Notes under the pieces: model-generated
Told to the model about the DNA's origin: nothing
Database searches by the model: none
What the model saw: the letters and a program-made list of their open reading frames with translations, nothing else
Position numbers and translations under genes: made by a program
Part shown: in pieces, positions 29,640 through 61,907 of the stretch
Position numbering within the stretch: the first letter of the stretch is position 1
Layout: each line of letters begins with the position of its first letter
DNA from: Marsupella aquatica
Lineage: Eukaryota > Plantae > Marchantiophyta
Length of the DNA: 64,000 nucleotides
Assembly: GCA_973895155.1 (NCBI GenBank)
Contig: OZ316892.1
Location: forward strand, 31,055,802 to 31,119,801
Direction of reading: 5' to 3'

Positions 29640-29646
29640 TATAAAA
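29640..29646 (+). promoter_or_regulatory. TATA box (TATAAAA) of the 5' LTR
   Basis: Canonical TATAAAAGGGG, 108 bp upstream of the LTR-ORF ATG; identical copy at 39761-39767. Confidence 0.7.
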
Positions 29647-29747
29647 GGGGAGCCAACCCTTTGTAGTGCACCAGTCCATCAGTCCACGCGCCAGCTTCGA
29701 CCCCAGCTCTCTCGTTCTATCTAGGTCGCCACTACTATCTCCTCTGA

Positions 29748-33322: not shown

Positions 33323-33340
33323 TGGCGCTAGATGGAGGGG
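33323..33340 (+). promoter_or_regulatory. primer binding site TGGCGCTAGATGGAGGGG
   Basis: TGG-initiated 18-mer 12 nt after the 5' LTR; cognate tRNA not determined. Confidence 0.75.
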
Positions 33341-33433
33341 GCACTCTACATATCGTAGAGGGGAGACATGTGCGTATTCACCTAGGCAGGATACATCAGG
33401 ACGTAGTACTAACCATTGCATTTATATGAGTAA

Positions 33434-36400: not shown

Positions 36401-36439
36401 TCTCATGGGATCCGTCCATTCCGCAATTGGAGGAAGTAA
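33434..36439 (+). CDS. gag: gag-protease, one in-frame TGA at 34466-34468
   Basis: MPVTRSQ start; capsid (PFKG..DPDEWL..MRGEARPWY); Lys/Ser-rich tract; three CCHC knuckles; protease LVDGGAGVNIM..LLGRPWL; ORFs 33434 and 34565 share a frame. Confidence 0.9.
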
Positions 36440-39435: not shown

Positions 39436-42400
39436 TTCAGTCTAACTACGCTCGGCACGCGCGTTAGGTGGGTCTTAGGCCGCTATTATTAGCATAACGA
39501 CAGTATTTAGGTAATCATTAGGGGTAGGACATCATTAGGCAATAAGGGGGACCTCAGGTTCGGGCTGGCGGCGGGTCGCTATTCGCACACCCGGGTTATG
39601 AGCATGGAGTGGCCCCTCCCTCGGGTCCGTATAACGAACTTAAGGAAGCGGCCACTGACGCACGCTGACTCAGACCGATGGAGTGGCCGGTACACCACAA
39701 GCGTGAGCGGTTCAACCTATGGGCGTCGAGGAGACGTCGGGGATCGACAAGCCCTCAAAGTATAAAAGGGGAGCCAACCCTTTGTAGTGCACCAGTCCAT
39801 CAGTCCGCGCGCCAGCTTCGACCCCAGCTCTCTCGTTCTATCTAGGTCGCCACTACTATCTCCTCTGAATGTCGCACACGATCCTCTCCAGCTCGGCCAT
39901 TCGATTCTGGACGCAGTTCCTATCTACCGGAAGGCACTTGGCCGATTCATTGAAACACGCCAACCCGCGCCGATACGAGATCGAACGTGAATACGAGAGA
40001 GCCATCCGCCTAGCAGGACGACACCACTACGTCCTTAACTTTGACTACCCGTCTCAGAGCGAGCTTTACCGACCAGCTGAGGTATCTGGGTACTTCTTTG
40101 ACGGAGACAAATATATCGGGTTCTGGGAAGCATTGCTTCGGCTTCCAGACGAGGTCTTCAATATCCCGGGTACAATCGACCTGCAGCGACATCACTTCGA
40201 CCACATCCCTGCCCAGGTTCGGGCAGTCATTAACGGCGAGTCCAGTACCAACCGTTCGACAAGGGCGTCCGCACTCGCTTCGGAGAACTTCTACCAGCAC
40301 CTACAGAGCTTCATGGGAACTCGGCCATCAACCAACATGACCAACTCAGCCGGACCCGTACCCGTACCCGTACCCGTACCCATACCCGTACCCGTGCCCA
40401 TGCAACCTCAGCTTCAGCTTCAGCCTCAGCCGCAGCCTAGCCAAACCCCACCACCTATCACCCAGCCAGCACAGGTACGCTCCGTCATCAACGCGGTGGA
40501 TCTTAGCGATGACGACGAGGCTACCCCACCCTTGACCAGGCGGCCCAGAGGAACAAGCGCTCGGGGGGCCGACACTATACCGTCCCCACCCCCTGCTCTG
40601 ACCCCAGGAGCGGCCCCAGCAGACAACATGGTGACCGTGGCCGCCCCGGGCCCGTTACCAACCGCAGTGGCACTCCCCAGGCCCGATCGGGAGGATGGGG
40701 AAGTATCACCTTCCCCGAGTCAGTCACGGGGAAAGAAGAGAAAGGAATCCGCCAGTGCATCCGGGTTACCGTTAGCCACGGTAGCCGTAGCCAAGGTAAC
40801 GATGCATCGCATGGGGGAAAACGTTCACAGCAACATCCTCCATCCCAAGCATGCGGTGTACCTGAAGACTCAGGGATTTGAGCACCTCGCCTCTCTCCCC
40901 TGGAACACTTGCAGGTACTACGGGGAGGACATGACAGAATTTGTCAAGAATTATGACGACGTACGTCAACAGACTCGGCTGCGGGGAAGGAATATGTCCC
41001 TCACAGAAGAACGGCTCAAGATGATCTTCGGGTTACCCGAAGGTGACCATCGAGTCGAATCACGGGCTCCCGGGGGCAAGGGGGCCAAGTACCAATCTTC
41101 AAGTTTTCCCTCAGAGGGATCAGTAGACAACGGGTTCGTGATGAGGACCTGCCTCATGCCCGAGATAGCTGAGCGGCTGGAGTTCCAGAGGTACGCTCTC
41201 CACTTGATGGAACCCCGGGGGGAGATCTCCGCCGCCCAGGTCATCCAGGTCGAGAACTATCGACCTAGGAAGTGGGCGTCGTACTTCGCTAAGAAATTCC
41301 ATGAAGAGATGGAGCGGCGAAGGAAGACGCTGTACATTGGCGGGAAGGCGTATTTCGCTAGCCACATCGAAATCATTCTTGAGTGGTATGCCCGGTTTGA
41401 TCGACGAACCCTTCCCCGCATCAACGTTACAAAGCTGGTCCCAGCTAGGTGGGTTTTTCCGGCATTGGAGAGACGGCCCCAACCCGAGGCCCGAAGTCCA
41501 GTGGACACGCCAGCTTCACCCACCCCACCTCCACAAATAGCTGTAATCGTAACCGAGGAGGCGCCGGAGGGGTCGGTCATCGCAACCGTTGATGCGACCC
41601 AACTAGCCGGGCTAAGTACAGAAGTTGGTACGGCAGAGGTCTTACCCGAACCCGGGTCTCCCAAGGACCCGCCGGTGGCAATTCCGGAGAACCGGACATC
41701 GCTGCAGGAGGATACTCCGGCCCCTTCCAACGTTATGTCCCCAGGGCTGGACGTCACTGCCCCGGCCCCTGCGCGTGTTGATGTCTGCCCGTGCCCAAAT
41801 CCGGACAGGCACAACTTGGACCACCCGGAACTCTTCGTACAGGGTACGTTTCTGAACGGGCTTCTGGGAGATTTCTCTCATCAAATTGCCCGGGATACCG
41901 GGGAGTTCATGGCTCGGAAGGTAGCCTGTTTCTTCAATCAGGAGTTGGTTGCCGCCGTAAAGGCAGGGCGGGCCCAGTCGGAGGCCCTTCAAAGGATAGA
42001 GCGGTACCGGGAGGAGTCCGTGTACCTAAAGAACGAAGTGGCGGCTCAAGAGGCTGAGCTTCTGCAACTACGACCCAAGGTTGCAGCCGCCGATGAGTTG
42101 TTAGCAAAGGTGTACGCTCTTACCGCCCTAGCCGAACAGGCCAAAGCTGGGAACGAGGCCGAGATTACACGACTCCGGAACCAGATTGACAGTTTGAAGA
42201 AACAAGCTGTCACCTGGCAGAAAGACCTGGAGGAGGCCGAGGAGCGAGCCCAGCGGGACGCGACGGAGATAGCCACGCTGCAGGCCGAGATGGCGCGGCT
42301 CCAAACCGAGGCCGAGAAGCAGGACCAGCTGGCGAGTAAACTGGCGAGCGACGCCCAGCAGCTGGAGGAGGCATGTCAGGAGGCAGCAGAGGAGACGGAC

Positions 42401-43429
42401 GCGGCGAGGCGAGAGAACGAATCTCTGCTGGACCAGGTCCAGCTCCTCAAAGCGGACAATGACAGGCTTCGAAGGCAGCGGGATGGCCGTTCCCATTCGG
42501 GCGGCTCTGGCAAGCGTGCCAGGCATTAGCGGCGGAGTAGGAATAGATTAGGATTAGGATTGGCTTAGTCAGGCTCTTGGGACAGGCACCTGCCTTAGGT
42601 ACGGCAGCGCTGCCCTGCTGTCCAGCCTGCGTAGATTAGGATCTTCTAATAAGACACAGCCGTTTTCCGGCCTGACTGTCAGCTTAGTTAGGACCTTGGT
42701 CAGCGAATCTTCGGCGGGAGGACGCCCCATTCCTCGGCTCTTAGTATTTAGTGCACCCCTCGGTAGAGGCAGGGGGGGGTTTTTAGTTTCAGAGTCGGAC
42801 ATCCGCGGGACATGCGGGGAGTCCCGACCTCTAGGAATGACAGAGTACCAAGGGGAGGGGGTAGGACTAAGCTTGCCGGGCGAGTGCGGAGCCGGGCTCC
42901 GTTGTAGTGTGCACCCTTGGCCTTGAACCTGTGCATTCCAGGGCTGTCGTGTCAACTAAGTGTACGCATATGTTCCCTTTGTAGTAAAAATCCTTTCCCA
43001 TCGTTTTTCCTTCGTGTAAATCGAGATTGTATGCATGTGTGCGCATATGTGTGTGGGTTTCTCGTATATGGGTGGCAGCGCCGGGCCGAACGCACTACCC
43101 GAGACGTGCACAGGGTGCAGCCTACGGGTAAGTGGTTGCGAGCACGGGTTGAGGACCTGTATCATCGAATCCGGATCGAAGGCGGACAGCACGAAGGCTT
43201 AGAAGCCCTTAAGCCGGGGTCGATCCTGCTATCGACTAAGGTACGTTCCGGCGGCGGAACACAAACCATACCTAGGAGGTGTCCGTATTTAGCAGTATGC
43301 GCACTTAGCGCTAGTTTACGAGAATAAGGTGCATTACGTACTTCCCTTCCTGCCCGAACCCTCAGATTTACGAGGGATGTGCCCGTCTAAGCTGAAGTCT
43401 GAGTTAAGGCCGAAGCCTACGACGTGACA
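39403..43429 (+). repeat. 3' LTR (4027 bp)
   Basis: TGTGACG...CGTGACA followed by TSD TAGCC. Confidence 0.97.
39869..42529 (+). CDS. intact 886-aa LTR-encoded protein: N-terminal globular region, Pro-rich linker with NLS-like RGKKRK, PMD/Transposase_32-like domain, C-terminal coiled coil
   Basis: ATG-to-TAG ORF wholly inside the LTR, downstream of a TATA box; G..L..LPW..EF..N...RG....L...L...FGLP pattern resembles the accessory domain of Athila/Tat-type extra ORFs. Confidence 0.9.
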   Translation: MSHTILSSSAIRFWTQFLSTGRHLADSLKHANPRRYEIEREYERAIRLAGRHHYVLNFDYPSQSELYRPAEVSGYFFDGDKYIGFWEALLRLPDEVFNIPGTIDLQRHHFDHIPAQVRAVINGESSTNRSTRASALASENFYQHLQSFMGTRPSTNMTNSAGPVPVPVPVPIPVPVPMQPQLQLQPQPQPSQTPPPITQPAQVRSVINAVDLSDDDEATPPLTRRPRGTSARGADTIPSPPPALTPGAAPADNMVTVAAPGPLPTAVALPRPDREDGEVSPSPSQSRGKKRKESASASGLPLATVAVAKVTMHRMGENVHSNILHPKHAVYLKTQGFEHLASLPWNTCRYYGEDMTEFVKNYDDVRQQTRLRGRNMSLTEERLKMIFGLPEGDHRVESRAPGGKGAKYQSSSFPSEGSVDNGFVMRTCLMPEIAERLEFQRYALHLMEPRGEISAAQVIQVENYRPRKWASYFAKKFHEEMERRRKTLYIGGKAYFASHIEIILEWYARFDRRTLPRINVTKLVPARWVFPALERRPQPEARSPVDTPASPTPPPQIAVIVTEEAPEGSVIATVDATQLAGLSTEVGTAEVLPEPGSPKDPPVAIPENRTSLQEDTPAPSNVMSPGLDVTAPAPARVDVCPCPNPDRHNLDHPELFVQGTFLNGLLGDFSHQIARDTGEFMARKVACFFNQELVAAVKAGRAQSEALQRIERYREESVYLKNEVAAQEAELLQLRPKVAAADELLAKVYALTALAEQAKAGNEAEITRLRNQIDSLKKQAVTWQKDLEEAEERAQRDATEIATLQAEMARLQTEAEKQDQLASKLASDAQQLEEACQEAAEETDAARRENESLLDQVQLLKADNDRLRRQRDGRSHSGGSGKRARH

Positions 43430-43559
43430 TAGCCCTCTGTGAACCGCCCGACCACAACGACGACTCTTCCACAGCGACCACACGCAACTTTTAATGTAGG
43501 AAACAACCTATTGTTGTAGGCATTTGTGATGAGATTAGCTCCGTGAGGGTTTCATTCCA

Positions 43560-44920: not shown

Positions 44921-46640
44921 TGCAACCGAGAAACAGAGGGGGTTTGAGAGAGGAGAGGCAAGGGGCGTTATGTAATTATAGCATCAAAGGATGTACACGG
45001 TATGATCAATGAAGACGACCCGAGTAGGAGAAGAAGTAGCTAGGGAGCCGAGTAATTAAATTGCGGAAGGAAAATGAAGATTGAATTGCGACGAACACGC
45101 ATTGTAGGCGAGGGGAAAAAAAGTGATTTGTGTCTAGCCAGGTACACATTCCGTAAGTTATCCCACAAAGAAGATGGTATGTCGACCCAACCCCCATACC
45201 CTGTGAGAAAATGCAGTAGTGCAGTTTACACTCTGCCCGTGAGTGGGTTTAGGGTATACACACATGTTGCTATAGAGGACCGGTCCCAATTTTAGATTTG
45301 CTTGTCCGTGGTATGCATCTGGGTTGTTCCGGTTTTGGTGACAGGTTGGATGTGTCGAACGTACCGCCGGACGCTTGAAGGCACTTGCAGTTTAAAGAGT
45401 TGAGCCTCGGAGACAATCAAACGATGGAAGATGTATAATAGGGGTGTAAGTCGTAAGTTGTACCAAACTCGATGACTTGAATGTTGAATGAACTAATTCG
45501 TGTTGTGAAGGGATTTGCGTGAATAATTGTGTTGGGGACTGAGTGCTGGGAAGGTTTATTAATGGGTGCGTGCAAAATGCTTGTAGTTAATTCCGAGATG
45601 AGACCAAACAGTGGTGGTGTAGAGTAAGAAACCTCCGGGGCTTGTTGTTAGTCTATTCTTTAGCAGGAGAAAAGCGCGGCTTCAGGGTATAGACATTCGG
45701 ATAGAATATTTCTTGGACAGTGCAGGGGGGAAGATGCAGCTTAATTTTAGCATTCTCCAACCCCACTGCGTGTAGTGTGTTTTTTTGTATTGCCAGTCTC
45801 GATTAAAAGGCAGGGTTTGATCACTAGCCCAAAATTCTGGGATGTTTGTACCGGCTCTAATATAGGGTCCGTTTTTTTCTTATGCACCCTACCTTGTAAT
45901 AACATCGGTTGGCATTTCAGTCTGAGCAGTTGTGACTTTGAAGTGGTGGAGTGTGTTTCTTCTGTGCAATTTCGACCTTCTCGCGTGATCTGTTTTCAAA
46001 TCATAGGGAGTCATTATATGATCTGTCCTTCTGCAATAGGCCCGATGAGTTGTTTCTGTGGAATTGCATATCTGGTTCTTTGGTTCAGAATTCTGTGACG
46101 CGAGGTAAAAGAATTTCACTATAATTTCGCTTACTGGTAATTAGCATTGACATGTAACGGTCACTTTATTGAAGGCAAATTGGGAATTAATGTTGAGGGA
46201 GGACTAAATTTTGTTCTGAACTAATGTAACAATGTCATTATATTGAAGTTGAATCCTCTGTTCGTGCTTGTAGGATTTCAAAAACAACACAATTCGAGCG
46301 GGAACGCGATTATTGCAGGCCATTGCTGCTTTCTATGGAGCACCGCTTGGTTGTGTATTAGTGTCACGGCACTTCTGATTTGGCATATTGGAAGATACCA
46401 CCCAATCCCCAATTCTAAATCGTCTGCAGTAGCACCTGGCTGTTGAATTATTTATCATCGCGGATGAGTACTCCCCTCCTTTGGATATTCAATAGTCGCA
46501 ATACATCCCTAAGTCGTCACTGGTGTTGAGTTGTGGCGTGGCGCGGCGTGGGTGTTTCTATTCAATACCTGCATCATTAGGGCAATTGACACTCAGTTTT
46601 GCATCTGGGAATGGAGGGCCCACACTCACTCGGATGCACA

Positions 46641-48498
46641 CTATTGAATCTCAGGAGCGGATTTGAATTTTCTTTGTTTATCCTGAAAGAAAGCTGTGTC
46701 TGACCATACATACAAACATTGGTAATGTAATCGAATTGATGATGTATGCAGGTCTCACCTGATCCAAACGGTAACGGAGATTGGTCTCATTTGCCAATCG
46801 AAGTTGTTGATTTTCCTGCCCCATATGTTGTATTAACTTGGCAGCTTTTTCAGTTTCTTCTTGAAGCAGGGTCATCTTTAGTCGATAAGCTGCTCTTGAA
46901 AATGTAACTGATCCCTGCTCTACTAATGTGGACAAGTCAAATCCATCAATGTTGTGCAGTGCCTCGTGAAGATAAAATTCCATGGCTTTTTCCCTTTCCT
47001 TCGAAGCTTCTATGATGAAGGACTCCTTGGCCTCAACTTTGGGATTCCCTGCCTCTTGCAAACGTCGGGTGAGGTCGTCAAGGAGTTGTAAATCCGTGTC
47101 GAGCTGCTTCTTCAATCCCTGTACTTCTTCTTCTACTTTTCGGCATTGGCTCCGTTGGTTCTGTATCTCTCCCTGGAGCCTAGCATTTTCCTCTTTCAGT
47201 GCGTCTAGTTGCTTACATATTCTAGGCTCACACGGCCCCAATTTGTCTGACCTCTGTTCCAAAGCCGTGCCGTCGATTGTCATGCTCTGTACCGTTCCCT
47301 TGTGTAATAATGTACCTTCGGATTTGTGCAATGACTCTGCGGCGTCCTGATGAAATCCCATGTTCCGGCTGGGGCTCTCTGCAAACTCTTTTCCCTCGTT
47401 TACCGATGTGACGGCTACCCTCTGTTCGAAACCTTTCAATTGAGATGCATCTACTGATTCCAGCTTCTGTACATGTACATCCACCCGTCCGTCCTCCGAA
47501 CCGCCTTCCACCATGGAGGATTGTAAGGCGTGGTTGCTCGCCCTGAAGTTGTGCAAAATGTATGCTCCCTGTAGAGTGGCTTCTTCTCCACGATCTTCTT
47601 CGCCTTCTGAACTGTGATCGCGTGCTTCTTCCTGTTCCGGATTAGCTGCAGTCCCATGTGGTAAGGTGGATTCACTGGTTACCCAGTTTTCCCCGACGGC
47701 ATGACTGTAAGCAACGGTTTGCCGGTGACTCCTATGCCATTGGCGATTTTGCGGTGCAACATCAGGGATGGCGGTGGTATCCCTGATCGGGTTCACCATT
47801 CTTTTCTTTAGCACCCAACAAATGATGTAAGCAAGAAGTGAGGGAAAAGGAGGAACCGATTTGGACCCGAGTTTCTGAAGCAACTCTGCCTTCCACACTT
47901 GCAACGGGTGGAGCTCGCCTTCGAGCGCTCGAGCGGCGATCGTGATATGGTCAATTGTCCCATGATGGTAACCAGATTTTATCATCACCCATTTGGTGAA
48001 AAACTCTATATACTTGCGGACCTCCAAATTTGTCACCGTCCCGTATTGGATCTTCCCGGCACGGATCGAGGATCTCAAGTCACGGTCCGACCTCAAAAAG
48101 CCGATAATCTGCCGTGGAGTGTAAGGTGTGCACTTCACTCTTGTCAGGAGCTGCGATGGAACTAAACCTGGAATCCCAAACATGTTTGCCAATTCTTGGT
48201 TGAGCACCCTAATAAGCGGTGTCCTATCGTACTCGATGCAAAGTGACGCCTCATCCCCATAGACTGATCGTATATTCCGATGATAATATGCAGCCTCTGC
48301 CAAGGTCAGATCGCAACCCACCCGGACCATACCCAGGCATTTGGCACGACGGAAGATGCTCTCAAATTGAGTAATGTAAGCGGTGTCCGTTCGCGAGTTC
48401 CGAATGTTGGCCTCTGCCGCCATTGTAACGGTTTTAGAGCCATCGATAACTGCAGTGTTTCGAGTAGTCTCCGCGCGAGACCTCTTTCTGCTCGACAT
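46641..48498 (-). CDS. intact two-exon gene, distant PMD/Transposase_32-like domain plus coiled coil (exons 48498-46759 and 46682-46641)
   Basis: MSSRKRSR start; NQELANMFGIP, EVRKYIEFFTKWV and PSLLAYII match the LTR-ORF motif order; CAG/GTGAGA donor and TTTCTTTCAG acceptor define a 76-bp phase-0 intron ending DKQRKFKSAPEIQ*. Confidence 0.7.
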
Positions 48499-49953
48499 GA
48501 AATGAATGGAAGGACAACCTTGCAAAACCACAGTTTACTTCCGAAACTCGTGTCGTTCATTCGGGTGCTGGAACGATTTTGGCGAATTGCTCAAAAAACT
48601 TTTCATCCAACTATGTTGGCCCCTATTGTATCGCTCGAGGTGGCGGATGTTTTTAGGGCTGACTTCCGCTAAAGCCGGACATCGCATGCGGCAAATTAGA
48701 GGGTCAAATTTGAAAGCGATGCAACTTTTAAGTTTTTTTGTATTTCTTCCAAGACTTATGAGAGAAGCTTTGATCTGACACTATTTGTGAGATTTTAGGG
48801 TGTACATTACTGTTATCCTCTAGATACACTCAGCGGGTTACGGTGACGCACGGTGACTTCCCTCATATTTACGAGAGGGCCGACCATTCCCAAAAATGGG
48901 TTTCGGTCAAACAAAATGAGATGTATCATTATTAGCATTGACTTTTTGGTTGGTTGGTTGAAGAGACTCTTCAGCCCGAATTCAAGATTCAACACATGTC
49001 CCCTCGTTTATCATGCTTAGGGAAATGGAAGGAAGGTTGCCACGGTGTGTGGTCACAACGAATATATGTCATTGTTTTGATGGTTCGTTTAGGGTTCGAG
49101 AGGTGGCCAAATTGAAACGGGGTCTTCAATGGCTAATTTGGTGAAGCTCCGATTTGAGCTCTATGTTATCCCTTTCAGGGTTTATAGTTTAGGGTTGTAT
49201 GGTAAATGTGTTTTATGGAGCATATACTGGTGACTGGTGGTGTGGGTAAAATGGCTGCGGCTAGGGCAATTCTAGATTGCTGTTTCAAGTTTCGATAAAA
49301 CAATGGAGTGTAGCTCTGGACCTCGGATGGAACAGAGTGATTTCAAGCTCGTACGATTGATACCCATCTGTAGTGCCGAGCTGACTACACAAAACTGGTC
49401 ACAACACAACAGTACTTAACCGGCTGAGACTCAAGCTAACTTTGGCCGCAAGTTATTTCACTTACCACATCGGTGAATCAATTTAGTCACCATCTGAAGC
49501 AGTTGCCGTGCTAGTATGGGCTCGGCTGACACAACAGAACCCAATCCGGTGGTATTCTTGTCGTCGGGTTTGGCTATAAGACGTCCAATGAAAAGGCTTT
49601 GCATCCGACAAAACAGAGGCTTAGTTCCGCTGGCATACATAGATTGTAAAAAACAACTCGATAGTTGGGAAAAGTTTAGCCCTACTGACCAACTCCCTCC
49701 ATTCTTCCCTAGAGCCTAACTCCTAAAGCTTTACAGTGTAGCGCAGATTGCGCCAATGCTACCTACTACAAAACCAATCTATGAAAAAAAGAGTTGTGCC
49801 TGCTGTACTCTGGGGTCGTGCTCAGACATAGCTGTTTTGAAAGGAATAAATATGTCTTTGGAAGAAATTCCGGAATATATACATTGTGTGACCGCGTTTT
49901 GAATGTGTAATAAAATATGTACATGTACATGTGGGGTGGATGGCTTCAGCTCG

Positions 49954-50784
49954 TCATACTTTGTTGAACCTCATCTCCAAATTGCGCCACTTGTCTTTCA
50001 GATCAACCTGTGGCACGAGGCACGAAAAAGGAAATTGAGAAAATTCCTCAGATCCATTACATTGATTTACAGGAGGTGGTGCGAATTATTCTGACCTCAT
50101 CAACGTACCTGGGATCGGTCTCGCAATGTTTGCCCGCTTTCTCGACGGATTGCACTCCAACTGCCTTTCCCAAACCTGTGGCACAGAGTCTTTGCATGCT
50201 TTGAAAATTGAACTCAACCAAAATGAATGTTCCTAGACTGGCCGGTACACGCTGTACGAATGGAAACCGCGAAAAGGACTTGTGTGTGGAACGCAAACCA
50301 TTAATTCATACGGAGCGTTGACATGACACAAGTCCCCAAACTCACCTGCTTACTCCGTTTCTGAGGCACTGTTCCTCTTCTTTGGTCCACCTTCTAAATT
50401 GCCTGCGCATAGATTTTGATGAGTCGGAGCTCATTCTGCTGATGGTGGAGGCAGATTGCGATGTTACGACAGTATCAGGTTCATCCAGTCGCATTCCCTC
50501 CCACCGGGTATGCCCCGCTCCCACCTGCACGAAGAGATTCAAAACATGTCAGGTTGCTGTGAATCAGATTTATCCTTATTCCATGCAGCCCAGCTCGGAA
50601 CGGCCGATGATACCGTCTTACCTGTGCCGAAGGCTGAAGAGGACTGGGCGCGGCGTGTGCATCCAATATACGTTTCCTCTGTGGATTCTGCCCTGACATC
50701 ATGCGCGTATCACATTTAGTTTGGCTACCTTCCGTGGTGAGAGGAGTATGGGAACATTGCCAGGGCCGAGCGCCAACAGAGTAT
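49954..50784 (-). CDS. 3' exons of a gene ending in a TRF-like telobox Myb domain (exons 50784-50622, 50524-50346, 50175-50109, 50007-49954)
   Basis: GT-AG introns with compatible phases give RRWTKEEEQCLRNGVSR/FGKGSWSAIRRESGQTLRDRSQ/VDLKDKWRNLEMRFNKV*; LKDKWRN is the telobox signature. Confidence 0.9.
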
Positions 50785-51483
50785 CTGTGAACAATTGAAC
50801 GAGGATCTCTTAACTATCTTGTCATACGTTGCTCTCATAGCTGATGATACAGTCTTACATTGCGTAGAACTCATATTAAATATACAGGGGCACGAATGCC
50901 AGGAATTCATGGCTTGGGGGCAGCAGATGGTAGTTTACAGTTTCCATGACCCAGGCTTTACATTCTTGGAATTTTATACGTGTGTTGCCCGAAGCATAAG
51001 CTAATGGAACACGTAATGCTTATGCAGATGAACGGGACTTTCGAAATGTGAGACCCACAGGATTCGAGGCAAACAAAACGCTCCCCGTTTCAAGAAAGAG
51101 CAATGCTCGATCTCCGATCAGAAGCAGATGCATTCACTAAATAGGCAGATACTTGATGCACGTACCCCCCCTATATCTTCCTAGTTTGGTTTAAATACCA
51201 TCGTGTGTGTATATAGTGTAGTGTAGTGTAACCAAATCCAAATCCAAATGCCGGAACGATACAGAGAGGATGATCCCTGCACCCTCCACCTCGGTCGCAC
51301 TCCGACGAATCAGTGGCAGTCTTCCGTGCGTACCCCACAGGTTTTAGGTGTGGATGGCCTGGGGTTCCTTCGACTGGGACGTGCCATAAGTCGACTGTAC
51401 CGGTCCTGTGCTAGACTTATTTAATAAGCTGTCCGTTGACAGACTCGGCCTTCATGTCGGCGATCTGAGATTTCCCCGTGTAC

Positions 51484-54471
51484 CTACGTTTGATGCCAGG
51501 ACTTACCGTTGTCCGATGCCGATGCCGATGCCAATGCAAGTCGGGTACGATTGGGCGTCGATTGTCCTGGTGCCGTCGATAGGGGTGGCTTTACAGGATG
51601 TTCCTTCTTTGCCCGTGACATCTCCAGGAGCCGATTGATCTCCGCCAACTGCCTTTTCGTCTGGGCCTTTAGAAGTTCGTTGACACCTTGTAATCGTTCG
51701 GCCTCATCCCCCGCGGAATCCCGCTGTTGTCGGGCTTCCTCCAAGTCTGCCGCCAGAGCTGCGATCTCCGATCTAAACCCTGCCACCTTCTGAAGGTGAA
51801 ATTTGGCTCTCTCTTTCTCGGCCGCCAGTTCCTCCGCTTTAGCCCGGATGTCATCCAACCTCTGAACTGACACGGACTTTGCCTCCGCCACCTCCTTTGC
51901 TGCTTGCGTTTGTAGGTCCACATATCGTTGATCTCTCGTTTGTTGCAATTTCTCCAGGTCCCCACTTATTCCGACGATCTTCTCTCTTTCTGAGTCCAAC
52001 TCCTTATTGTGACTCTCCACGAGATTGGCGACTTGATGAGCAAAACTTTCCTTCAAACGCTTCACCGAATCTTCATGTAGTCGTTGTTCGTCCTGCATCG
52101 TCCGGTTAACATCATGTTGCTCCGCGACTTGGCGTTTTATCTCTTCCACCGAACCATGTAAGACTGCCAATTTGTGTTCCATCTCCGCCATGTGGGCGGA
52201 CTTCCGTCGCTCGGCCTCTAACACCTTGGCGCTCTTGTCCCTTTCCGCCTGTAACGCCTTCCGGTGAACCTCCATAACATGGGCTTTCATGTGCTCTTCG
52301 TGCAACGCTTGCTGATGTGCTATCTCCAAACTTTGCTTCAGGTGCAAAATGTGTTCCGCATCTTGCTTGTGTGCATCACTGATCGAATTGAGCTCGTGAT
52401 TGAGGTCGTGTAGGACCGCCTGCATATTTCCCATCCTGGCCTGCTTTGCATCCATTTCTCAAAGCCTCCGGATGACCTCCGCCTTCATGAGTTTCTCGGC
52501 CTCCAACTTGGACAAAATGTTCTGGCACTGGGCATTTCGCTGCCAGAGGAGCGGCCTGGCGTCCATGTGACGATGCAAAATTTCTATTAGAAGCTTGCCT
52601 ACCTCGTCAGCACAATACTTGGAAAGCTCGACGGCATAAGCGGACCTTGGCTCATCCGTACGAACTGGACGCCAAACTTTCGTGTCCTACTGGCAGCTCA
52701 TTTTCTCGTAGTAGTCCAAATCCTGAATTGGTTGTTGGGCGTTTAGGATTTTCTCTTCAATAAATGACGGCCAGGGACCGCCGGGAATGTCATGCTCCTG
52801 GGACATGTCTTCATCCGGGGGCAATTGGTGAGCTTCTGCGTTTGTGGATAGTGACTGTTCGGTAGCTATCATCAGTGTTGATTCCGGTAATACTGTCATC
52901 ACCTCCGTTTGCCCCACGCTCCCCACCGGCCGGTCTTGACCGAGCACCCATGACTCTCCAGGCGGGCAGCACCCTTCTGCAATGGTCTGTTGTGTGTCTA
53001 TGCCGGGGCCCTCAAAACCATGGCCTGGGCCTGGAGCCTCGTCGGGTGCAAGGTGTTGCTGGTTTTCGCAGCGGTGAATGTTGGCCGCAGTGGAGGCCAA
53101 CGGGTGTAGAGACTCCCCGTCCACCGCTCGAGTTGCTGTACCTTCTCTGCACTCACTTGCCACTGTTGCAGCACCCTCTGTTTCGTGCCGAACACCATTT
53201 CTGGAGTCGGTATGGTTGTCCTGGAACTTCCCCGAAGTCTTTCCGCTCTGTTGAATTTTGGCCGCAGTGGAGGCCAACTGCTTTAGAGACTCCCCGCCCA
53301 CAGGTCGAGTTGATATACCTTCTTTGCGCTCCCTCGCTACCACCGCAGCACTCTCCGCTTTGGGCCGAACGCCATTTCCGAAGTCGGCATGGGTGTCTTG
53401 GAACTCCCCCGAAGTCTTAGTCAGGTTTGTCGCCGTGGGACGTAATGATTCCTGACCGTCTGGTTTGCCGTCCGATCCCGAACTGGGAACCCTTGTCGCT
53501 GGATCCTCCGCAACATCCCCCATTCCCAACAGTAAAGGCTCCTGATTGCACAGCAGCCCCATCTGCACCTTGTCTTGGGGAGCTTTGCCGACCCCGCCAT
53601 CAGTATGGGGACCGGCTGATGCGAACAAAAGTCTCCGCGCGTACCTGCATATCATTGGTAAATGATAAGCTAACTTTGATGATGAGGAGGTCTGTAAGTT
53701 TTCTCTGGAAAAATCAAGGTTACCCAAAAGTTTTTTATACAGAAACCCACAGTAGTTTAGGTTCGGTCCGAGAGTCTGCAACAACCAACAGTGGCGCTTC
53801 GGTATTTCTTCATCGGGATCGGTCATCCAGAGTGCCGCCCTCAAGAATTCCAAGAGCTCCAGCTGATGTTTGCTGGTGCACTGGTTCTTCAGGAACCCAG
53901 TTGTGGTGGGTGCTCCTCTGAAATAGGTCCACTGGTGATCACGTATGTACACCCGCCCTTGGATCGCTCCCGGCCGACCTCTGGGCAAGCGGAAAACCTC
54001 GGAGACAACCTGCTCGTCAAATTGGAATTCCCTGCCACTGATGCACCCAACCTTCCGCTTGGGGTCCCAAGTCCCCACAAAGTCCCGCATCTCCTGTTCT
54101 GACACATCGTCCGAATGCAACCACGGCAGGTTTATGAAGGCGGAGAGGCCTGTGTTGTCCGTCGAAGTGTCATATTGATTGGTATCAATGTTGGCGAATG
54201 CTTTGTCCTCGATCTTGGGGAACCTTAGCTCTAGGTTTGTTGGCAGTGTTCCATTCCACCCCTGCGAATCGCAATGTGTTGGTGGAGATGCAGCAGCCTG
54301 AGCCTCAAACGGCGGCTCCTCTTCTCTGCCCTCAAGTGCCGCAACCCCGTTGGGTGTGGTCCGGGTCTTCTTCTTGGGTGCCACTCCAGGGGTTTCTTGA
54401 TTGTCCTCCTCCGTGGATGTTGCTGTTGCATCTGCTGCCAACTTCCTCTTCATCGGGGGCTCCGGTGCCAT
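51484..54471 (-). pseudogene. homologue of the family-B LTR ORF (PMD/Transposase_32-like plus coiled coil) with two in-frame stops
   Basis: ORFs 52687-54471 and 51484-52455 share a frame; the linker is open except TAG (52687-52689) and TGA (52459-52461); DIPGGPWP..EVIRRL* matches DLPGGDWP..EVIRRLR of 5432-8773; G/GTAAGT donor at 51507/51506. Confidence 0.85.
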
Positions 54472-54611
54472 GGTAGGGCTCTGCAGGTCCCAGTGTGATC
54501 AAAATGGCCCGCACAAACTTCAATTACGCTTTCAAAAACCCTTTTAAATAACCCTAAACGTTTTGTCGACCAAGATGTGCTTATCGCCACGCCTTGGAGC
54601 CCCAAAACGAG

Positions 54612-54935
54612 TGAGAGAATGATAGTCCCGTCTACTCACTCTTGTCAAACCTTGCTTGCGCATCACCCTGAAAGAGCGCGATAGAATCACAGTCCCTTCT
54701 ACTCACTCTGTTGAACCTCGGATGCCCACAACCCTGAAAGAGCGCGAGAGAATCATAGTCCCTTCTACTCACTCTGTCAAACCTCGGATGCCCACAACCC
54801 TGAAACAGCACGGCAAAATGATAGTCCCATCTCCTCACTCTTGTCGAAACTCGTCCCACAGCCCAGAAAGAGCGAGAGAGATTGATAGTCCCAGCTCCTC
54901 ACTCTTGACGAACCTCGCTTGCCCACAAACCCTAC
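54612..54935. repeat. about 66-bp tandem repeat, 5 units, immediately upstream of the 54471 start codon
   Basis: Units GAGAGAATSATAGTCCCTTCTACTCACTCT(T)GTCAAACCTCG..CCCACAACCCTGAAAGAGCGC visible at about 54612, 54680, 54745, 54811 and 54874. Confidence 0.9.
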
Positions 54936-56755
54936 TACGACTACGACTACTACATTATTTTAGCCGTTGGTGATAGACGACTTAATCCGGCCTTGACCCT
55001 CAAAGGTTGTTTAGGGTTTAGGGTACAAACATATCATTTGTGAAATGCCGATAGCCATCTACAACTATAATAAGGGATCCCACCTTTTTTCGTCCTTGGT
55101 CACCATACAAAAAAGCTTCTGGGCGGGAAAGATCCAGTAATTTTTTCTAAATAAATCAAGATATTGAAAAATATTGATAATTAGGGGTGACAATGTTATT
55201 GGTGGTAACCCTAAACTGGACCCAGGCACTCCAAAATTTGGCAGACTACCAACGACATCTCTTTGTGTGGATGTTCTTAGAAAGTTTCTTTATGTTTTAG
55301 CGTGTCAGTCTTTTTGAAAGGAGGTTGACAGATTGATAACATGGCGGGAATGGATTTGCCATCATAGCTGGATTTGCTAGAGCAAGGGAAAGAGAACCAA
55401 GACTATGTCAAAATGTAACAGGTAATTAATCTGCATCTCCTTTGGCTTATCCTCGCTGCATTTCAAGAAATGATAAATGAAGACCCAAAAAATGTGGGGA
55501 TTGGGACACGGGGCACATCTGGGAAATTGATAAAGCCAAGCAAAGATTGGTTTTTTTTGCCATTGGCAAGGGTGGCAAGGGATTCTGTAGCTGAGGTGAA
55601 CAATTTTGTTGACAGACATGGCATGTCTGAATATGCACAAAATTCAATGATAAGCACCGATTTGCCTCTATGTCAACTTACACCTGAGCTTCAGAATATC
55701 ATAGCAAAGTATCGAGTGAATTTTGAAGGGAGTCGAGATGACCTTGACATTGATGCTACTGTTGAAGTGGCTTCTGCTGTTGGTGAACCAGGTGAAGAGC
55801 CAGGTCAACCCACTTCTCAATGTTTTCTCAATGTTTGTGTGAGTAATAAATTTTGTAAACTGTAATCAAATATTGTGCACAGTTTCTAATTTTTTATAAG
55901 CACAACTTTGATTATTGTCCATTCCATTTATTTTGACTTGTGACCACAATTAGTGTCATGCCATATTAATGTCACACACCCTAATTACCGTCACTTACCT
56001 CAAATAGTCAAATCTAACCTCACATTAATTAGAGTGTGTGAGACTAAATACTGTAAGGAGTGTAGTGGAAAGAAAGAAAGAAAGAAAGAAAGAATGAAAA
56101 AACTGCACAACTTTCCAAAAGCGAGAAAGGTACAATACTTTAAGACAAGTGCATTAATTTCAAGGAACTTTATGATTGAAAGAGAAGTGCTTGAACTTTG
56201 TGCTTTCCTGATTTTCTGCTCTGCTCAAATTGGCGCTCTCTATTTAGGTGACACCTGTTGATCAATAAACCATGAACAATGTAAATTTTATATCCAATGG
56301 CATATAATGTGCACTCATCAGTAAATAGAACACTAGTTGCTTGGTTGAAGGGTCGAACCTTCTCATGCAAGTAAGGAAATATGCCCCTCAAAATGATAAG
56401 TATAATATAGCGGACCTGATAAGAACTAGGAAATGAAAACAAATTTATATGACTAAATTTTAAAGCATGGACATGGCCAAAGCATGGACTAGGCCGGATT
56501 AACATAATAATATATTTCAATTCAATGAGACCAAAAAATGTCCCTACCTAAATACCGTATATATATATCTCTCCAAACCATCGACCAGATAGATTTCAAA
56601 TTTCCATCTCATCCCTTGATAAAACCTTTCATTATTATGATTGCAGGAGAAGCTTTTTGATGGAGGTTTTTCAATGAGCCTAGCATTTCAATGAAGCGTT
56701 TCAGAGGTGACGGATTTTCTGAATCATTGTACCCTTCTTCGAAAGCATAGTAGTG

Positions 56756-57018: not shown

Positions 57019-58664
57019 GGGTATAGGTATTTTACCTTGCGTTGCATTAAACATGATGGGGGTCCCTGAAGGAAGGAGCTTGCCATGGGGGTCTGTCAAG
57101 AAATTCATAAACTCTCAAGCATCCTCATACTAAACCAATGGAATGTCCAACCCGCCCTACACGACTCCCGCGCAGAGCTTTGGTTGATGACTACTATAGT
57201 CCTGTTCTGGTTCACTACCAACATCCATGTCCTATGGGTTTTCCGGTGACAAAATGGACCGTAAATGGCTGTGTTTCAGCCGGCTTAGACTTTGGGGCAA
57301 ACCACCTACTGTACGCCCTCTGTTTTGTGCCACGTTTTCATCGTTGTTGAGCACCCCCAAGTCCCCACTTTTATACCGGCGGTGTGACGGATCCACAATG
57401 TGTCGAGGTTTGTAGAGAGCATTGACAATTGCTTGACATTGAATTGGGCATCGCCCTTCTTCACAGCCCTCTCACGGAGCCTCCGGCCGTTGCAGCGGAA
57501 CGACCCCATGGCCTGCATCACAATTATCTGTAACGTCCTTTTGTAAAGCGTTTTTCCACCTCTTCCCCACCATCTTTCATTGCATTGGTATGTTTGCGTC
57601 GATAGTGCACAGTAGAAGACTGGTAAGAACTCCATAAACAAGACAATTAGGAATTAGCAGGTGAATGTCCATATGGGCCTCGTTCTGGATGCATGTTCAC
57701 GATGAGTACTTTTAAGATGCTTTGAGAGGTAACGAGAATCACAATAGCCAAAGGCAATCGTTATACATGAAAACTGGGAGGAGAAATCACAAATGTCCAT
57801 ACGGTGAGTGCACTGTAGACGCGGCAATCGTGATCATGGAAAAATAAGCACATGGACGATGGCTTCAAATAAACTTTCCACTAATATAGAAGCATATATG
57901 ACCAGCATAGACAAAACCAGAGAATTACTTCAACAACATGGAGCTACAGTCGCGCAAGCAAATGAACAGCATATCCATGGAAGCAAGTTGTTGACATTTG
58001 TCAATTATCTCAGTGTCGATAAACGCATCATGCTGCCAAATCTTTCGGCAAAGACAGTAAATAATGGAGTCACCTCAATCTGTTGAGGAACAAATCAAGA
58101 TTGTTTCCACAGTCATGGTAATTACAAACAAAGAGAGAAGAAGAAAGGTACAGGGTAGGCAAGGTCCAGCTAATTAAATAATTGAAAATCCTGCCTGAAG
58201 CTATGGTGGTAAGTTCCAACGAAGTACTTCTTCAACAAGCTTAGAGCTAAGGAAACCGAGGAAAGCATACACCTTCTTAAGCTTTGCACAGGAGAGACAA
58301 CAGAGAACTAGGACGAAATCTTGCAAGAGGAGTCCTCGGTGGCTGATGTGGTGTTTTGCCGGCCTGGAATGTTTGAGGGGTCGTTCAGGCCCGGGATGAC
58401 TTGCACCAAGTTGAGCATTTCCTGAGGTATTCGGTTGGATCGAATTAGCTCAGTGAAGAGGGCTGCCAACAGTTGAGCTCTCAGGAGAGTCTATGGATTC
58501 TCCAGATCAGTTGTAGCCCTCTTCTCTTCGTGTTTTCTGTGGAGCCTATCCCTCTCTCTGGCGTCCTTTTGCCAATAAATCGTGTGCTTCCCTTCTGTCA
58601 GCGAGTTGTTGACATTTCCATTTAATATCATATGCTGCTGTCTGAAAACATTTTTCTCACCTAG

Positions 58665-59750
58665 CTATCCGATGTAAACTCCTGCCAAATTGGGCCGGGA
58701 CGTAGCCTGTGAAGGACCCGCCTTCCTTCCATTCTTCTTGTTATGATTGGATCTCTCCACAGTGGGATTACTTGGCGGAGCTGTGGGGACTCGTGCAGCC
58801 TGCCCATTTTGGGTGTAACGAAACGTGTGCTCTCCAGCAGAAGCAGTCGGGTTTGCTTCCTGCCTTACCCCTCTGAATTCATGAGCTTGTGATGCTGTGG
58901 CTCGAGGCACCGTGCGTGGATCTGTATTGTCGTTGGGAAGCTAGTCCCCACTGGAAATCAAATTGTTAGTCCCCACCCTCTTCGCAAAAATCTGTGTAAC
59001 ACTTTATGTCGTTCCTGTGGGAACATCTGAAATAATCAGCGGAATTGAATGCACGATGCCAATAAATTGTACCTGGTGCCACCGAGTCTTGCTGCAGAGC
59101 TCCTTCGTAGTCCTCTTGGTTTTCATCATCTGATGCTGCATCCACAAAGAGCTCGGTGTGTCCTGGCAATCCAACAGACGCTGTGGTAGGAGGAGCAACA
59201 TTTGCCCTCTCACCATACACCGCATGCATCCTGTCGAAGTGAGGGCAGATTTTGTCGAGGTTGTCCTCCGACGTCATTCCTGCCCGAAACTCCGCCATTG
59301 ATAAACCAGTTCCTGAATTGTTTTTGGCGTCCTTATGTTATCCTTCATGGCGAGAGCCTCCTTGTACCCTAAACCGTAACGTCAAAACCTTTTTCCCAAG
59401 TTATCTCCCGTGCCTACAAATTTGGGGAAACCGTTGGCATGGAGATGAACTTGTCCCCACAGGCACCCTACGAGAGGATCCATTCAGCATATCAAAACTC
59501 TTTGCATCTTCCGATTCATATCGCTTCCACGAACCTGCTCACAATTGGATGCGACCATGTCCGCTCCGTGTTCATTCACCTGCGAGTGTACCACTACACT
59601 ACTGCTGGATCCTGCGATACTCCCGATCCAGACAATACTGGAAATGTAGCAGCGCCCCACATCGAATTTGCCATACCTTCTATTTCTACTCCCGACTTTC
59701 ACACGGAAAATTAGTAATCACAGAGAGAGGGGAGCTTGAATTTTGAAACC
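58665..59750 (-). pseudogene. degraded Myb/SANT-like accessory gene of the type found beside PIF/Harbinger transposases
   Basis: SGTGLS..DNLDKICPHFDRMHAVYGERANVAP motif; donor CAG/GTACAA near 59073; (AAACCCT)3 at 59746-59766; frameshifts; no transposase recognised nearby. Confidence 0.4.
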
Positions 59751-60017: not shown

Positions 60018-60275
60018 CTATAGTACTGTAGTAGAGGCTTCACCACTTGGCATTTCCGGTCATTAACCAGGCCTTATGGGATGGAGTAGGAGCCATCCAA
60101 GAGTTGTGCTCAGATGAGGGATGAAGTACGGACCAATAATGAGTTTGTCCGTGGTTGCCGTTGGGATACTCCCTTCAGATATGGAGATGGGACCATGGAT
60201 CCGGAAGGAAAAATTCTACAAAGTAGCAAAGAATGAGAAGGCTGTGTTGTAGGGGCCTAAGTTTAGGGTGAGCCG

Positions 60276-61907
60276 TTGCGAAAGATGGAAGCCGACGGGA
60301 GGGATGTCCGTGGCACGGAGGAGATGAAGCACGAGTTGCAACGTAAGTTGGCAGAGCTTGCCATCCTAAATGGACAATACGCAGCTGAGAACCTGCTGCT
60401 TAAGGAGAAGGTGGCCAGGGGGGATAAGGCGTTGGGTGCAGTCCGGAAGCAGCGTGATATGCTGGCGTTTTGGGTTGATGATGCTTGCAAGGCTGCTTCA
60501 ACAAAGCAAATGGATGTGTGCACTGAAATGACAAAGGACCACCAGGCGACAAGAGAGGCGTTGGAGCGGGAACCGAGTGATGTTCCCGAGGTGGCCGCTA
60601 GACAGTCGGACGATCTGAGGAGTCAGCGGACCGCGGCCTTGGAGGACGTCAAGAGCCGGAATGGAGAATCGAGGGATGTTCCCAAGGGGGCCGCTAGACA
60701 GTTGCGTGCTCTGATGAGTCAGCGGACTGCGGCCTTGGAGGAAGTCGAGGGCCGGAATGGCGACATAGTGATGCAGTTTGCGACCTTGCGCGTCGCGAAT
60801 GAATCTGAACCTAAGGCGAAGGAAGACAGGCAGAATGGGAAGCGAGATGCACTTGCCGGAGAAGCAGAAGAAGTGGAGCGGAGGAACAAGTACTTGCAGG
60901 CCCTAGCGGACAGTCAGATGCAGAAATGTTGCAAGTGCGCAGAAGCAGGGAAGGAGTGGCGAGGAGGATTATTAGGTTCACGACGACCCGGCAAATCGGC
61001 CACTTATGAATGGGAGGAGCATCCTAGTTTTTGTAGGGAATTCAAGCTTTTGTTGGGAAAGTTTAGTGTAAAACGAATCTGCACCGATGTCCACGAGCTC
61101 GTTAGGCAGAAGAATCTACTCTTCCCTACTGCTGATCTACCTGTGTGGCTGAGCGAAAGTCTTATCGTTAAGGATCGGAATGATAAGCCGCTGTTGTATT
61201 TTTTGAAACATGCCCTTCAAAGACCTTTCTGAAATAGAGATCCTACGTTGGAAGGATTAGAAGCTCTTGAAGAGCTTGTGGAGGTGTACCCGCCAAATCG
61301 ACCCGCATCTGCAAATGGCAGATTCAAGGGACAAGCTATTCCCCTTGGCTCGGGTGTACACCATCTGGCATTTTGGCATGGCACCGGTCACAAACATGTC
61401 CCAGGGGTTTTGTCACAGCACATCATTGGATCCGGGAAGAAGTTGAATTGGATCCTAGAGTTCATAAACAAGTTCACGCCGGTGACACAGGCGATTGGAG
61501 CGCTCTTCGAATGCATCGACAGTGACATGTACGAAACATATAAGGCATTGTTTGATGCTTTCGCTCCTGGAGCAGCCAGTTATATGCATTCCACTTCCCG
61601 AAATTGTTTCTTAGGGATGGCAATAAATACCCAACTCGCTCCTGGTCCGCACAGAGATACAAATGACGCTGTGGATGGCTGGGTTGCGAATGTAGCATTT
61701 GGTGATTTTGAGGGTGGACGTTTGGAAGTGCCACAACTTGGTTTACAATTTGTATTACAACCTGGAGATGTGGTGTTTATGCGGTCGGCCGTTCTGCAAC
61801 ACTCGATATCAAGGATAACGTCCGGCTCTAGGTTTGGCGTAGTGTTTTTTACTCACGAAGCGAACTTTGCAGAGAATCTTCGCAAGTCACGGATCAGTAC
61901 CGAGTAA
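60276..61907 (+). pseudogene. TET/JBP-like 2-oxoglutarate/Fe(II) dioxygenase with N-terminal coiled coil; single in-frame TGA at 61230-61232
   Basis: ORFs 60276 and 61248 share a frame; HRD (61650-61658), FGDFEGGRLEVPQLG, PGDVVF, distal His (61800-61802), Arg (61830-61832) and VFFTH fit the double-stranded beta-helix active-site pattern. Confidence 0.75.

What the first reader, a model, noticed from the sequence alone, without database searches (positions are those of the whole stretch)
49954..54471. LTR-gene homologue apparently spliced onto a telobox (TRF-like) Myb DNA-binding domain
Seen: a clear family-B homologue with no LTR end motifs has a perfect G/GTAAGT donor at 51507, and about 0.7 kb downstream on the same strand four phase-compatible exons end in a telobox Myb (VDLKDKWRN). 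One possible bridging exon (about 51394-51333, phase 1 to phase 2) keeps the frame, but its acceptor is weak. Known: telobox Myb domains bind TTTAGGG, and plant TRB proteins recruit chromatin modifiers to telo-boxes. Inference: a chimeric protein that could aim a TE-derived chromatin factor at telo-boxes or telomeres. This copy has two nonsense codons, so intact paralogues or alleles should be sought.
Basis: partly seen in the sequence, partly recalled or inferred. Interest (0 to 1): 0.82.

Follow-up and report, generated by a model that had tools for sequence, protein, structure and literature searches.

The report
Transposon anti-silencing fold beside telomere Myb
A broken gene, probably from a moss, places a retrotransposon-derived protein predicted to fold like the transposon anti-silencing factor VANC directly in front of four intact exons of a telomere-type DNA-binding domain, and the two were likely once spliced into one protein, but no RNA was available to show it.

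Summary
Both halves are real. Exon 1 (54471-51507, minus strand, 988 codons, two stops) is homologous to ORFs carried in Gypsy LTRs in the same window. Its N-terminal domain models at pLDDT 91 and matches only VANC21, a transposon anti-silencing DNA-binding protein (Z 8.2, next 3.8); a long coiled coil follows. Four canonical exons downstream encode a complete telobox Myb with the exon layout of host TRF-like family 2 genes, not TRB. The join is not shown. No RNA run was listed. The donor is phase 1, the next good acceptor phase 2. For a fusion: the LTR flank and first domain are lost, a strong donor sits nine codons before the stop, and every lesion seen in either half is private to one copy type, so both halves stayed intact until recently. 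Copies now diverge neutrally (28 non-synonymous, 9 synonymous); no intact copy was seen. Verdict: probable (about 50%) recently dead chimeric gene; no such fusion found in the searches run.

The parts
51507..54471 (-). Exon 1: 988-codon retrotransposon-derived reading frame with two premature stops; lacks the extra N-terminal domain of the LTR-borne relatives
53611..54264 (-). Globular domain predicted to have the VANC21 (PMD / Transposase_32-like) fold
   Evidence: AlphaFold2 pLDDT 90.8; VIA-align Z 8.1-8.2, rmsd 4.5-4.7, 207-211 of 218 aligned; Atlas Transposase_32 lead 0.86
53075..53418 (-). 177-nt in-frame tandem duplication in the variable linker
51604..52641 (-). About 345 residues of long helix (coiled-coil like)
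   Evidence: single-sequence model, helices 64-409 of the segment, mean pLDDT 69
52687..52689 (-). Premature stop, codon 595; a sense codon in contigs of runs X2 and X4
52459..52461 (-). Premature stop, codon 671; a sense codon in contigs of runs X1 and X4
51501..51506 (-). Splice donor GTAAGT, phase 1, nine codons before the unspliced stop; best-scoring donor of the region
51334..51405 (-). Exon-like island ending in donor GTACGC (51333). From acceptor 51406 the frame closes after 20 codons; from weaker acceptors 51395, 51374 or 51359 it stays open into the Myb exons
50622..50784 (-). Exon A (phase 2 to 0); holds an in-frame ATG at 50702 and a weak phase-1 acceptor at 50693
50346..50524 (-). 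Exon B: linker with a possible degenerate iDDR-like Trp, then Myb helix 1
50109..50175 (-). Exon C: 67 nt, phase 2 to 0, Myb helix 2; same length as in host TRF-like genes; one base shorter in another copy type
49954..50007 (-). Exon D: telobox helix VDLKDKWRN, 8 more residues, stop (no Myb extension)
54613..54933 (.). 66-bp tandem array (4.9 copies) upstream of the start codon
55010..55024 (-). Tandem telo-box-like motifs upstream of the gene

Best explanation
This is a broken bryophyte-type gene whose 988-codon first exon derives from a retrotransposon accessory protein, predicted to carry the VANC21 anti-silencing fold and a long coiled coil, and which was likely spliced through a small exon onto the last exons of a duplicated TRF-like telobox Myb gene, making a protein that would have brought a transposon-type chromatin domain to telo-box DNA. 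Shown: homology of exon 1 to LTR-borne ORFs, the four Myb exons, loss of the LTR flank, the lesions and their patchy distribution among copies. Predicted: the VANC-like fold and coiled coil. Inferred: the splice join; that both halves were under selection until shortly before the copies split (about 2.6% apart); that the protein oligomerised through the coiled coil, bound AAACCCTA-type repeats through the Myb and opposed silencing there, as VANC and PMD proteins do at their own motifs. The copies seen now decay neutrally.
For: (1) Fold: only VANC21 matches among 48,161 chains, Z 8.2 against 3.8 for the next (Foldseek TM 0.47, E 0.24). (2) The ORF has lost both the N-terminal domain and the TAG-rich flank shared by the two LTR-borne relatives, so it is not a plain LTR remnant. 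(3) The best-scoring donor of the region lies nine codons before the stop, followed by an intron-like 101 nt, an exon-like island with its own donor, and an intron-like stretch to exon A (weak model). (4) Myb exon C has the host length of 67 nt and phase 2 entry found in 7 of 9 resolved host loci, yet the domain is only 22-30 of 52 identical to them: an old duplicate kept in frame over three introns needs a gene to belong to, and no other 5' half was found in the window (weak test). (5) All five lesions seen in exon 1 and the Myb exons are private to one copy type; none is shared, which bounds neutral decay before the split at about 1.6% divergence. (6) Pieces 8-10% diverged in run X4 cover the end of exon 1, the island and the intron before exon A at similar depth, which suggests the arrangement is older than the lesions.
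Against: No transcript: no RNA run was listed and the four runs laid behave as genomic DNA. Donor phase 1 does not fit acceptor 50785 (phase 2). The best-scoring acceptor (51406) closes the frame after 20 codons; the frame-keeping acceptors score low (-2.3 to -10.8 on a 16-intron matrix from other plants). A frame-keeping bridge appears in 199 of 200 shuffles. 0 of 89 family proteins carry a Myb and 0 of 120 Myb proteins carry the VANC-like domain; many of these are probably single-exon gene calls, so the test is weak. Substitutions between copies are neutral (dN/dS 0.86-1.2). Sequence identity to VANC21 is 6%, rmsd 4.5-4.7; a shared fold shows no function. A similar donor also sits after the coiled coil of the LTR-type relative (8396) with no clear exon behind it.
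Confidence: 0.5

Rival explanations
1. Two reading frames, not one. Exon 1 splices to the 51405 exon and ends after 20 codons as a stand-alone domesticated VANC/PMD-like coiled-coil protein; the Myb exons are a separate short gene (in-frame ATG at 50702, 126 aa) or a 5'-truncated TRF-like duplicate.
For: Best-scoring splice sites give exactly this. A TATA-like TATAAAA near 50975 and a possible 74-nt intron 50858-50785 lie upstream of exon A (sequence read directly). The next gene (48498-46759) has the same build, a Transposase_32/ATHILA-like long exon, coiled coil, donor and tiny exons, without a Myb. Contig depth of the other copy type is higher over Myb exons C-D than over exon 1 (depth is no copy number).
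Against: Needs two neighbouring genes 0.7 kb apart to stay intact and then die at about the same time. The donor at 51333 lies only 10 nt after the stop. The putative own 5' exon holds four upstream ATGs, none in an open frame with the Myb.
Confidence: 0.3
2. Cargo of a low-copy transposon: captured pieces (an LTR accessory ORF and the 3' end of a TRF-like gene) lie side by side in a mobile unit, each copy decays neutrally after insertion, and no fused protein was ever made.
For: Private lesions and neutral divergence among copies are what TE copies show. Upstream 66-bp array and internal peptide repeat recall VANC-bearing VANDAL elements (PMC5735166 passages). 3 of 89 family proteins carry a Harbinger transposase fragment. 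The surroundings are TE-rich.
Against: No terminal inverted repeat or Helitron 3' end was found around the unit; the high-copy repeat starting at 55057 runs away from the gene. Only two to three sequence types per run were seen. Unselected cargo would not keep a Myb this diverged in frame over three introns.
Confidence: 0.15
3. Assembly artefact joining two unrelated loci.
For: No single contig spans the whole unit in any run, and one run may be the source sample.
Against: Contig pieces cover all 30 bins of 49400-55400 in runs X1, X2 and X4, from two studies and two organism labels, including pieces across the spacer (50537-51042, 51094-51514).
Confidence: 0.03

Closest known systems
VANC21 of Arabidopsis VANDAL21 (MuDR) elements, PDB 9lnj/9lnk
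   Same: Predicted fold of the N-terminal domain (Z 8.2); coiled coil; tandem peptide repeats in a variable linker and a tandem DNA array nearby (features described in PMC5735166 and PMC13547354, passages read).
   Different: 6% identity; relatives here sit in Gypsy LTRs of a bryophyte-type genome, not in a dicot MuDR; VANC reads DNA with its own domain and no telobox Myb fusion is described in the passages read.
Plant mobile domain proteins MAIN/MAIL1/MAIL2 and the PMD-PP7 fusion MAIL3
   Same: TE-related domain fused to a host domain (PMC7156037 passages); PMD-C is reported to resemble VANC and to oppose Polycomb at promoters that also hold telo-boxes bound by TRB (10.1101/2024.09.27.615353 passages).
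   Different: No Pfam PMD hit. Known fusion partners named there are protease, kinase and phosphatase domains; MAIL proteins act at their own motifs beside telo-boxes, not through a fused telobox Myb.
Transposase_32 (PF20167) / ATHILA ORF1 extra ORFs of Gypsy elements
   Same: 9 of 89 family members score weakly on PF20167 (best E 1.6e-07, below cut-off); Atlas lead 0.86; globular domain plus coiled coil.
   Different: The query itself has no Pfam hit; the window relatives lie inside the LTR, and this copy has left the element.
TRF-like family 2 telobox proteins (TRFL7 subgroup; Physcomitrium A0A2K1IZD5)
   Same: Single C-terminal Myb ending a few residues after KDKWRN; 67-nt middle exon with phase 2 entry; 42% over 65 aa to the Physcomitrium protein.
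   Different: The N-terminal part is absent or replaced; iDDR motif unclear; tree placement unresolved.
TRB/SMH proteins
   Same: Telobox Myb.
   Different: TRBs have an N-terminal Myb, an H1-like domain and a coiled coil; here the Myb is C-terminal and no H1-like domain is found.

Membership tests
Telobox Myb domain | Three-Trp Myb repeat with LKDKWRN telobox in helix 3 | tested here: met
   Spliced exons B-D give W-19-W-22-W and VDLKDKWRN; 74 bits on a profile of 9 fetched domains
Telobox Myb domain | Binds telomeric repeat DNA | not testable with these tools
   Needs EMSA or DAP-seq; family 2 was first reported not to bind in vitro (PMC4700174), TRFL7 later reported to bind (10.64898/2026.01.29.702503)
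TRB/SMH | N-terminal Myb followed by H1-like domain | tested here: not met
   Myb is last, 8 residues before the stop; no linker-histone Pfam hit in exon 1 segments
TRFL family 1 | About 30-residue Myb extension after the telobox | tested here: not met
   Stop 8 residues after KDKWRN; definition from PMC4700174 passages
TRFL family 2 | C-terminal telobox Myb without extension | tested here: met
   same ending as Physcomitrium P0213 (7 residues)
TRFL7 subgroup | iDDR motif (Ala, Thr, Trp flanked by acidic residues) before the Myb | tested here: inconclusive
   Exon B begins with Ala, Thr, Trp and a few acidic residues about 40 aa before the Myb, but spacing and exon position differ from fetched host loci
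TRFL7 subgroup | Groups with TRFL7 in a tree | tested here: inconclusive
   25-row, 52-column tree; no supported set holds the window domain
VANC anti-silencing proteins | VANC (DUF1985) fold | tested here: met
   Z 8.1-8.2, rmsd 4.5-4.7, 207-211 of 218 aligned; next hit 3.8; predicted model, middling Z
VANC anti-silencing proteins | Detectable sequence membership (DUF1985 profile) | tested here: not met
   No Pfam hit for the exon 1 segments at E 0.1; no DUF1985 among 89 relatives at E 0.01; 6% identity
VANC anti-silencing proteins | Encoded in a VANDAL/MuDR element | tested here: not met
   Relatives lie in Gypsy LTRs; no element ends found round this copy
VANC anti-silencing proteins | Sequence-specific DNA binding and loss of methylation at targets | not testable with these tools
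   Needs binding and methylome assays
Plant mobile domain (PF10536) | Pfam PMD match | tested here: not met
   None for the query or 89 relatives; a fold-level link is indirect, via VANC
Transposase_32 (PF20167) | Match above the curated cut-off | tested here: inconclusive
   9 of 89 relatives match below cut-off; Atlas 0.86 is a lead only
TE-host chimeric gene | Spliced transcript joining TE and host exons in frame | not testable with these tools
   No RNA holder listed
TE-host chimeric gene | Purifying selection on the fused frame | tested here: inconclusive
   Neutral between present copies; no shared lesion, so intact until shortly before they split

The most novel reading that the evidence does not exclude
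A bryophyte lineage built a gene in which a retrotransposon's VANC-fold anti-silencing domain was given a telomere-type Myb, a one-chain device that targets anti-silencing activity to telo-boxes, the motifs through which TRB proteins recruit Polycomb; intact orthologues survive in related mosses, and the LTR-borne parents show the VANC/PMD fold in Gypsy elements outside flowering plants.
Probability: 0.3. Interest if true: 0.8.

Novelty: new variant of a known kind. Interest (0 to 1): 0.55.

Why it matters
PMD proteins are reported to oppose Polycomb at promoters that also carry TRB-bound telo-boxes, and how they or VANC act after binding is open. A natural fusion of this fold to a telobox Myb would tie the two systems in one chain and give a direct handle on what the fold does when tethered. 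Independent of the fusion, the fold assignment covers a family of bryophyte Gypsy LTR-borne ORFs, whereas PMC13547354 (passages read) calls VANC dicot-specific and derived from MAIN-like host genes; a VANC-like fold in moss and liverwort transposons would bear on that direction of origin. The value is capped because every copy type seen is broken and the join is unshown.

Tried and rejected
No RNA holder listed; the four runs laid showed no splice joints and covered introns: no evidence on expression either way. Word-index protein search with residues 70-290 found 0 of 898 candidates; exon B alone 0 of 2. Related-locus scan of metagenome contigs: 530 pattern hits, none confirmed. PDB sequence searches with single Myb exon pieces and with alignment A2 gave only chance or coiled-coil hits. 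Viral fold library: nothing. Bridge exon as evidence: rejected. TRB and TRFL family 1: rejected on domain order and missing extension. The N-terminal-domain test for the 5432 ORF used a wrong frame and was redone. Helitron 3' ends and terminal inverted repeats round the unit: none convincing. Myb tree unresolved. Profile comparison with the neighbouring ORF 48498-47761 was not significant (probability 1.6). Codon-position model did not pick a frame for the island. Bacterial promoter scan is not applicable. Earlier-findings look-ups by place, sequence and words gave nothing on this locus or family; one search listed other telobox fusions. In one search, 12 of 21 fetched loci could not be resolved and were left out of the exon count; the phase 0 of the last intron was fixed by the search pattern and is not independent. 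Variant tables were truncated (241 rows hidden, 22); 37 shown exon 1 substitutions, pooled over copy types, were counted. Literature: eight searches showed no report of a VANC/PMD-telobox Myb fusion in the listings or passages read; subscription papers and supplements were not seen, including the paper behind 9lnj/9lnk.
Full report
Setting. The window is a TE-rich plant stretch: a copia fragment, a LINE fragment, a PPR gene and an intact-looking Gypsy element at 29283-43434 whose two 4-kb LTRs (99.4% identical) each hold a long ORF. The named relatives of that ORF family come from the liverworts Calypogeia and Riccia; the PPR protein looks moss-like (recalled, no call). A bryophyte, probably a moss, is therefore inferred.

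Exon 1. The minus-strand frame 54471-51507 has 988 codons with stops at 595 and 671. It is homologous to the ORF at 5432-8773 (34% over 289 aa, E 1e-46, and 23% over 352 aa further on) and to the LTR ORF (E 8e-08). A profile built only from 52 database hits scores the LTR ORF at 192 bits, the 5432 ORF at 159 and exon 1 at 142, so the three are one family. The two relatives share a further N-terminal domain and a TAG-rich 3' flank with a TAGGATTAG motif; this copy has neither.

What the domain is. Pfam gives no hit on exon 1. A profile search found 89 relatives; 9 match Transposase_32 below the cut-off and 3 carry a Harbinger transposase fragment. An AlphaFold2 model from a 55-row alignment has pLDDT 90.8. 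Foldseek ranks VANC21 bound to DNA first (TM 0.47, E 0.24; next TM 0.14). VIA-align gives Z 8.1 and, against 48,161 representatives, Z 8.2, rmsd 4.7, 207 of 218 residues, next hit 3.8. Identity is 6%, so this is a fold-level link. VANC21 is a transposon-encoded protein that binds short motifs in tandem arrays and removes silencing (PMC5735166, passages). PMD proteins are reported to share its fold and to oppose Polycomb at promoters that also hold telo-boxes (10.1101/2024.09.27.615353 and PMC13547354, passages). The C-terminal third models as long helices, and the linker holds a 177-nt duplication; a 66-bp array lies upstream of the start.

The Myb exons. Exons at 50784-50622, 50524-50346, 50175-50109 and 50007-49954 join in frame over GT-AG introns of 97, 170 and 101 nt. 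To compare them with host genes I fetched 82 loci holding a telobox exon and tried 21; 9 resolved, all with a phase 2 intron before the middle exon, which is 67 nt in 7 of the 9, as here. The spliced domain scores 74 bits on their profile and is 22-30 of 52 identical to the seven of equal length, and 42% over 65 aa to a Physcomitrium protein of the same ending. It stops 8 residues after KDKWRN, so it is TRF-like family 2, not family 1 or TRB (definitions from PMC4700174 and 10.64898/2026.01.29.702503, passages and section 17). The subgroup is unresolved. [quoted passage not shown]

The join. The donor at 51506 is the best-scoring in the region and such a site within 60 nt of a given stop has about 0.5% chance. 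It is phase 1; the acceptor of exon A is phase 2. Six one-exon bridges keep the frame, but shuffled spacers give 6.9 on average and at least one in 199 of 200 cases, so a bridge proves nothing. The best-scoring acceptor, 51406, gives a 101-nt intron and a frame that closes after 20 codons; the frame-keeping acceptors 51395, 51374, 51359 and the direct one at 50693 score low on a matrix of 16 introns from other plants. A crude codon model marks 51405-51334 as exon-like between intron-like stretches but picks no frame. The sites thus suggest one splice chain from exon 1 to the Myb, without showing an open frame along it.

Other copies. Four runs from two studies and two organism labels hold the locus; all behave as genomic contigs. 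Each of the window's stops is a sense codon in other copies, and one X4 contig lacks both, but that contig has its own stop at codon 684. X3 and X4 show a one-base insertion at 53296, all four runs show a copy type with one base missing in Myb exon C, and X1 and X4 one with a base missing at 51342. The 37 listed substitutions in the last 420 codons of exon 1 are 28 non-synonymous (three of them at stop codons) and 9 synonymous, dN/dS 0.86-1.2. The main copy types differ by about 2.6% (18 of 675, 35 of 1368). No lesion in exon 1 or the Myb exons is shared by all types, which limits neutral decay before their split to about 1.6% (rough, from five events). X4 also holds pieces 8-10% diverged over 51270-51460 and 50765-51062, and a second type over 51485-51596 at similar depth. 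Contigs are short and merged, so lesions are not phased and an intact copy is not excluded; none was seen.

Relatives with both domains. None of the 89 family proteins has a Myb and none of 120 telobox proteins has the VANC-like domain. Many are probably single-exon calls, and the 120 are the top of 3,427, so this is weak. Eight literature searches showed no such fusion in listings or passages read. Known PMD fusions are to protease, kinase and phosphatase domains (PMC7156037, passages). Earlier scan notes list telobox Mybs fused to recombinases and MC1 domains in other genomes (unchecked), so this Myb is a mobile module in general.

Reading. An old, diverged Myb kept in frame and a 988-codon TE frame stripped of its LTR, 0.7 kb apart, joined by a chain of splice sites and both intact until about the same recent time, are most simply one chimeric gene that has recently died (0.5). 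Two separate frames (0.3) and inert transposon cargo (0.15) remain. If fused, the protein would likely oligomerise through its coiled coil, bind telo-box repeats (20 AAACCCTA in the window against 2.1 expected; such motifs are common in plant promoters) and act on chromatin there through the VANC-like domain; every step of that mechanism is inferred. It works like a VANC/PMD factor at best; it is not a member of VANC, PMD or TRB by the tests run. Novelty: new variant of a known kind. Interest 0.55.

Noticed in passing
window 29283-43434 (+): Young Gypsy element with 4.03-kb LTRs (99.4% identical, 5-bp target duplication) each carrying an ORF of the same VANC-fold family: 886 aa in the 3' LTR, stopped at 734 aa in the 5' LTR; a third partial LTR at 2813-5414. 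A protein gene inside the LTR is copied with every solo LTR.
   Followed up: partly
window 5432-8773 (+): Intact 1113-aa relative with the extra N-terminal domain and an LTR-type 3' flank; its upstream part is cut by the LTR insertion ending at 5414; has a GTAAGT donor at 8396 after the coiled coil.
   Followed up: partly
window 46500-48498 (-): Second TE-derived gene 1.4 kb downstream on the same strand: long exon with an ATHILA/Transposase_32-like domain (Atlas 0.92-0.93), coiled coil, donor at 46758 and small exons; telo-box-like motifs upstream.
   Followed up: partly
window 60267-61907 (+): TET/JBP-type oxygenase domain (Pfam E 6.6e-12) behind a coiled-coil ORF, separated by one stop; a DNA-base oxygenase in a plant TE region.
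   Followed up: no
window 55057-55400 and beyond (+): High-copy repeat with a sharp left end at 55057 in all four runs; its start resembles a Helitron 5' end (recalled).
   Followed up: partly
window 58350-59700 (-): Multi-exon frame that resembles the accessory (Myb/trihelix-like) gene of Harbinger elements (recalled; no Pfam hit for the pieces tried).
   Followed up: no
whole window: ACCCTAAA occurs 40 times against 2.2 expected, 32 of them on the minus strand, in clusters at 23.9-29, 44-45, 48.8-49.2 and 54.5-60.3 kb.
   Followed up: partly
proteins P0042, P0046, P0064: Family members joined in gene calls to a Harbinger transposase fragment (two named from Riccia), suggesting the domain also rides in Harbinger elements.
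   Followed up: no
window 20441-21625 (+): PPR gene fragment that ends at a stop, followed by a diverged duplicate of its last part (21224-21488 vs 21527-21792).
   Followed up: no
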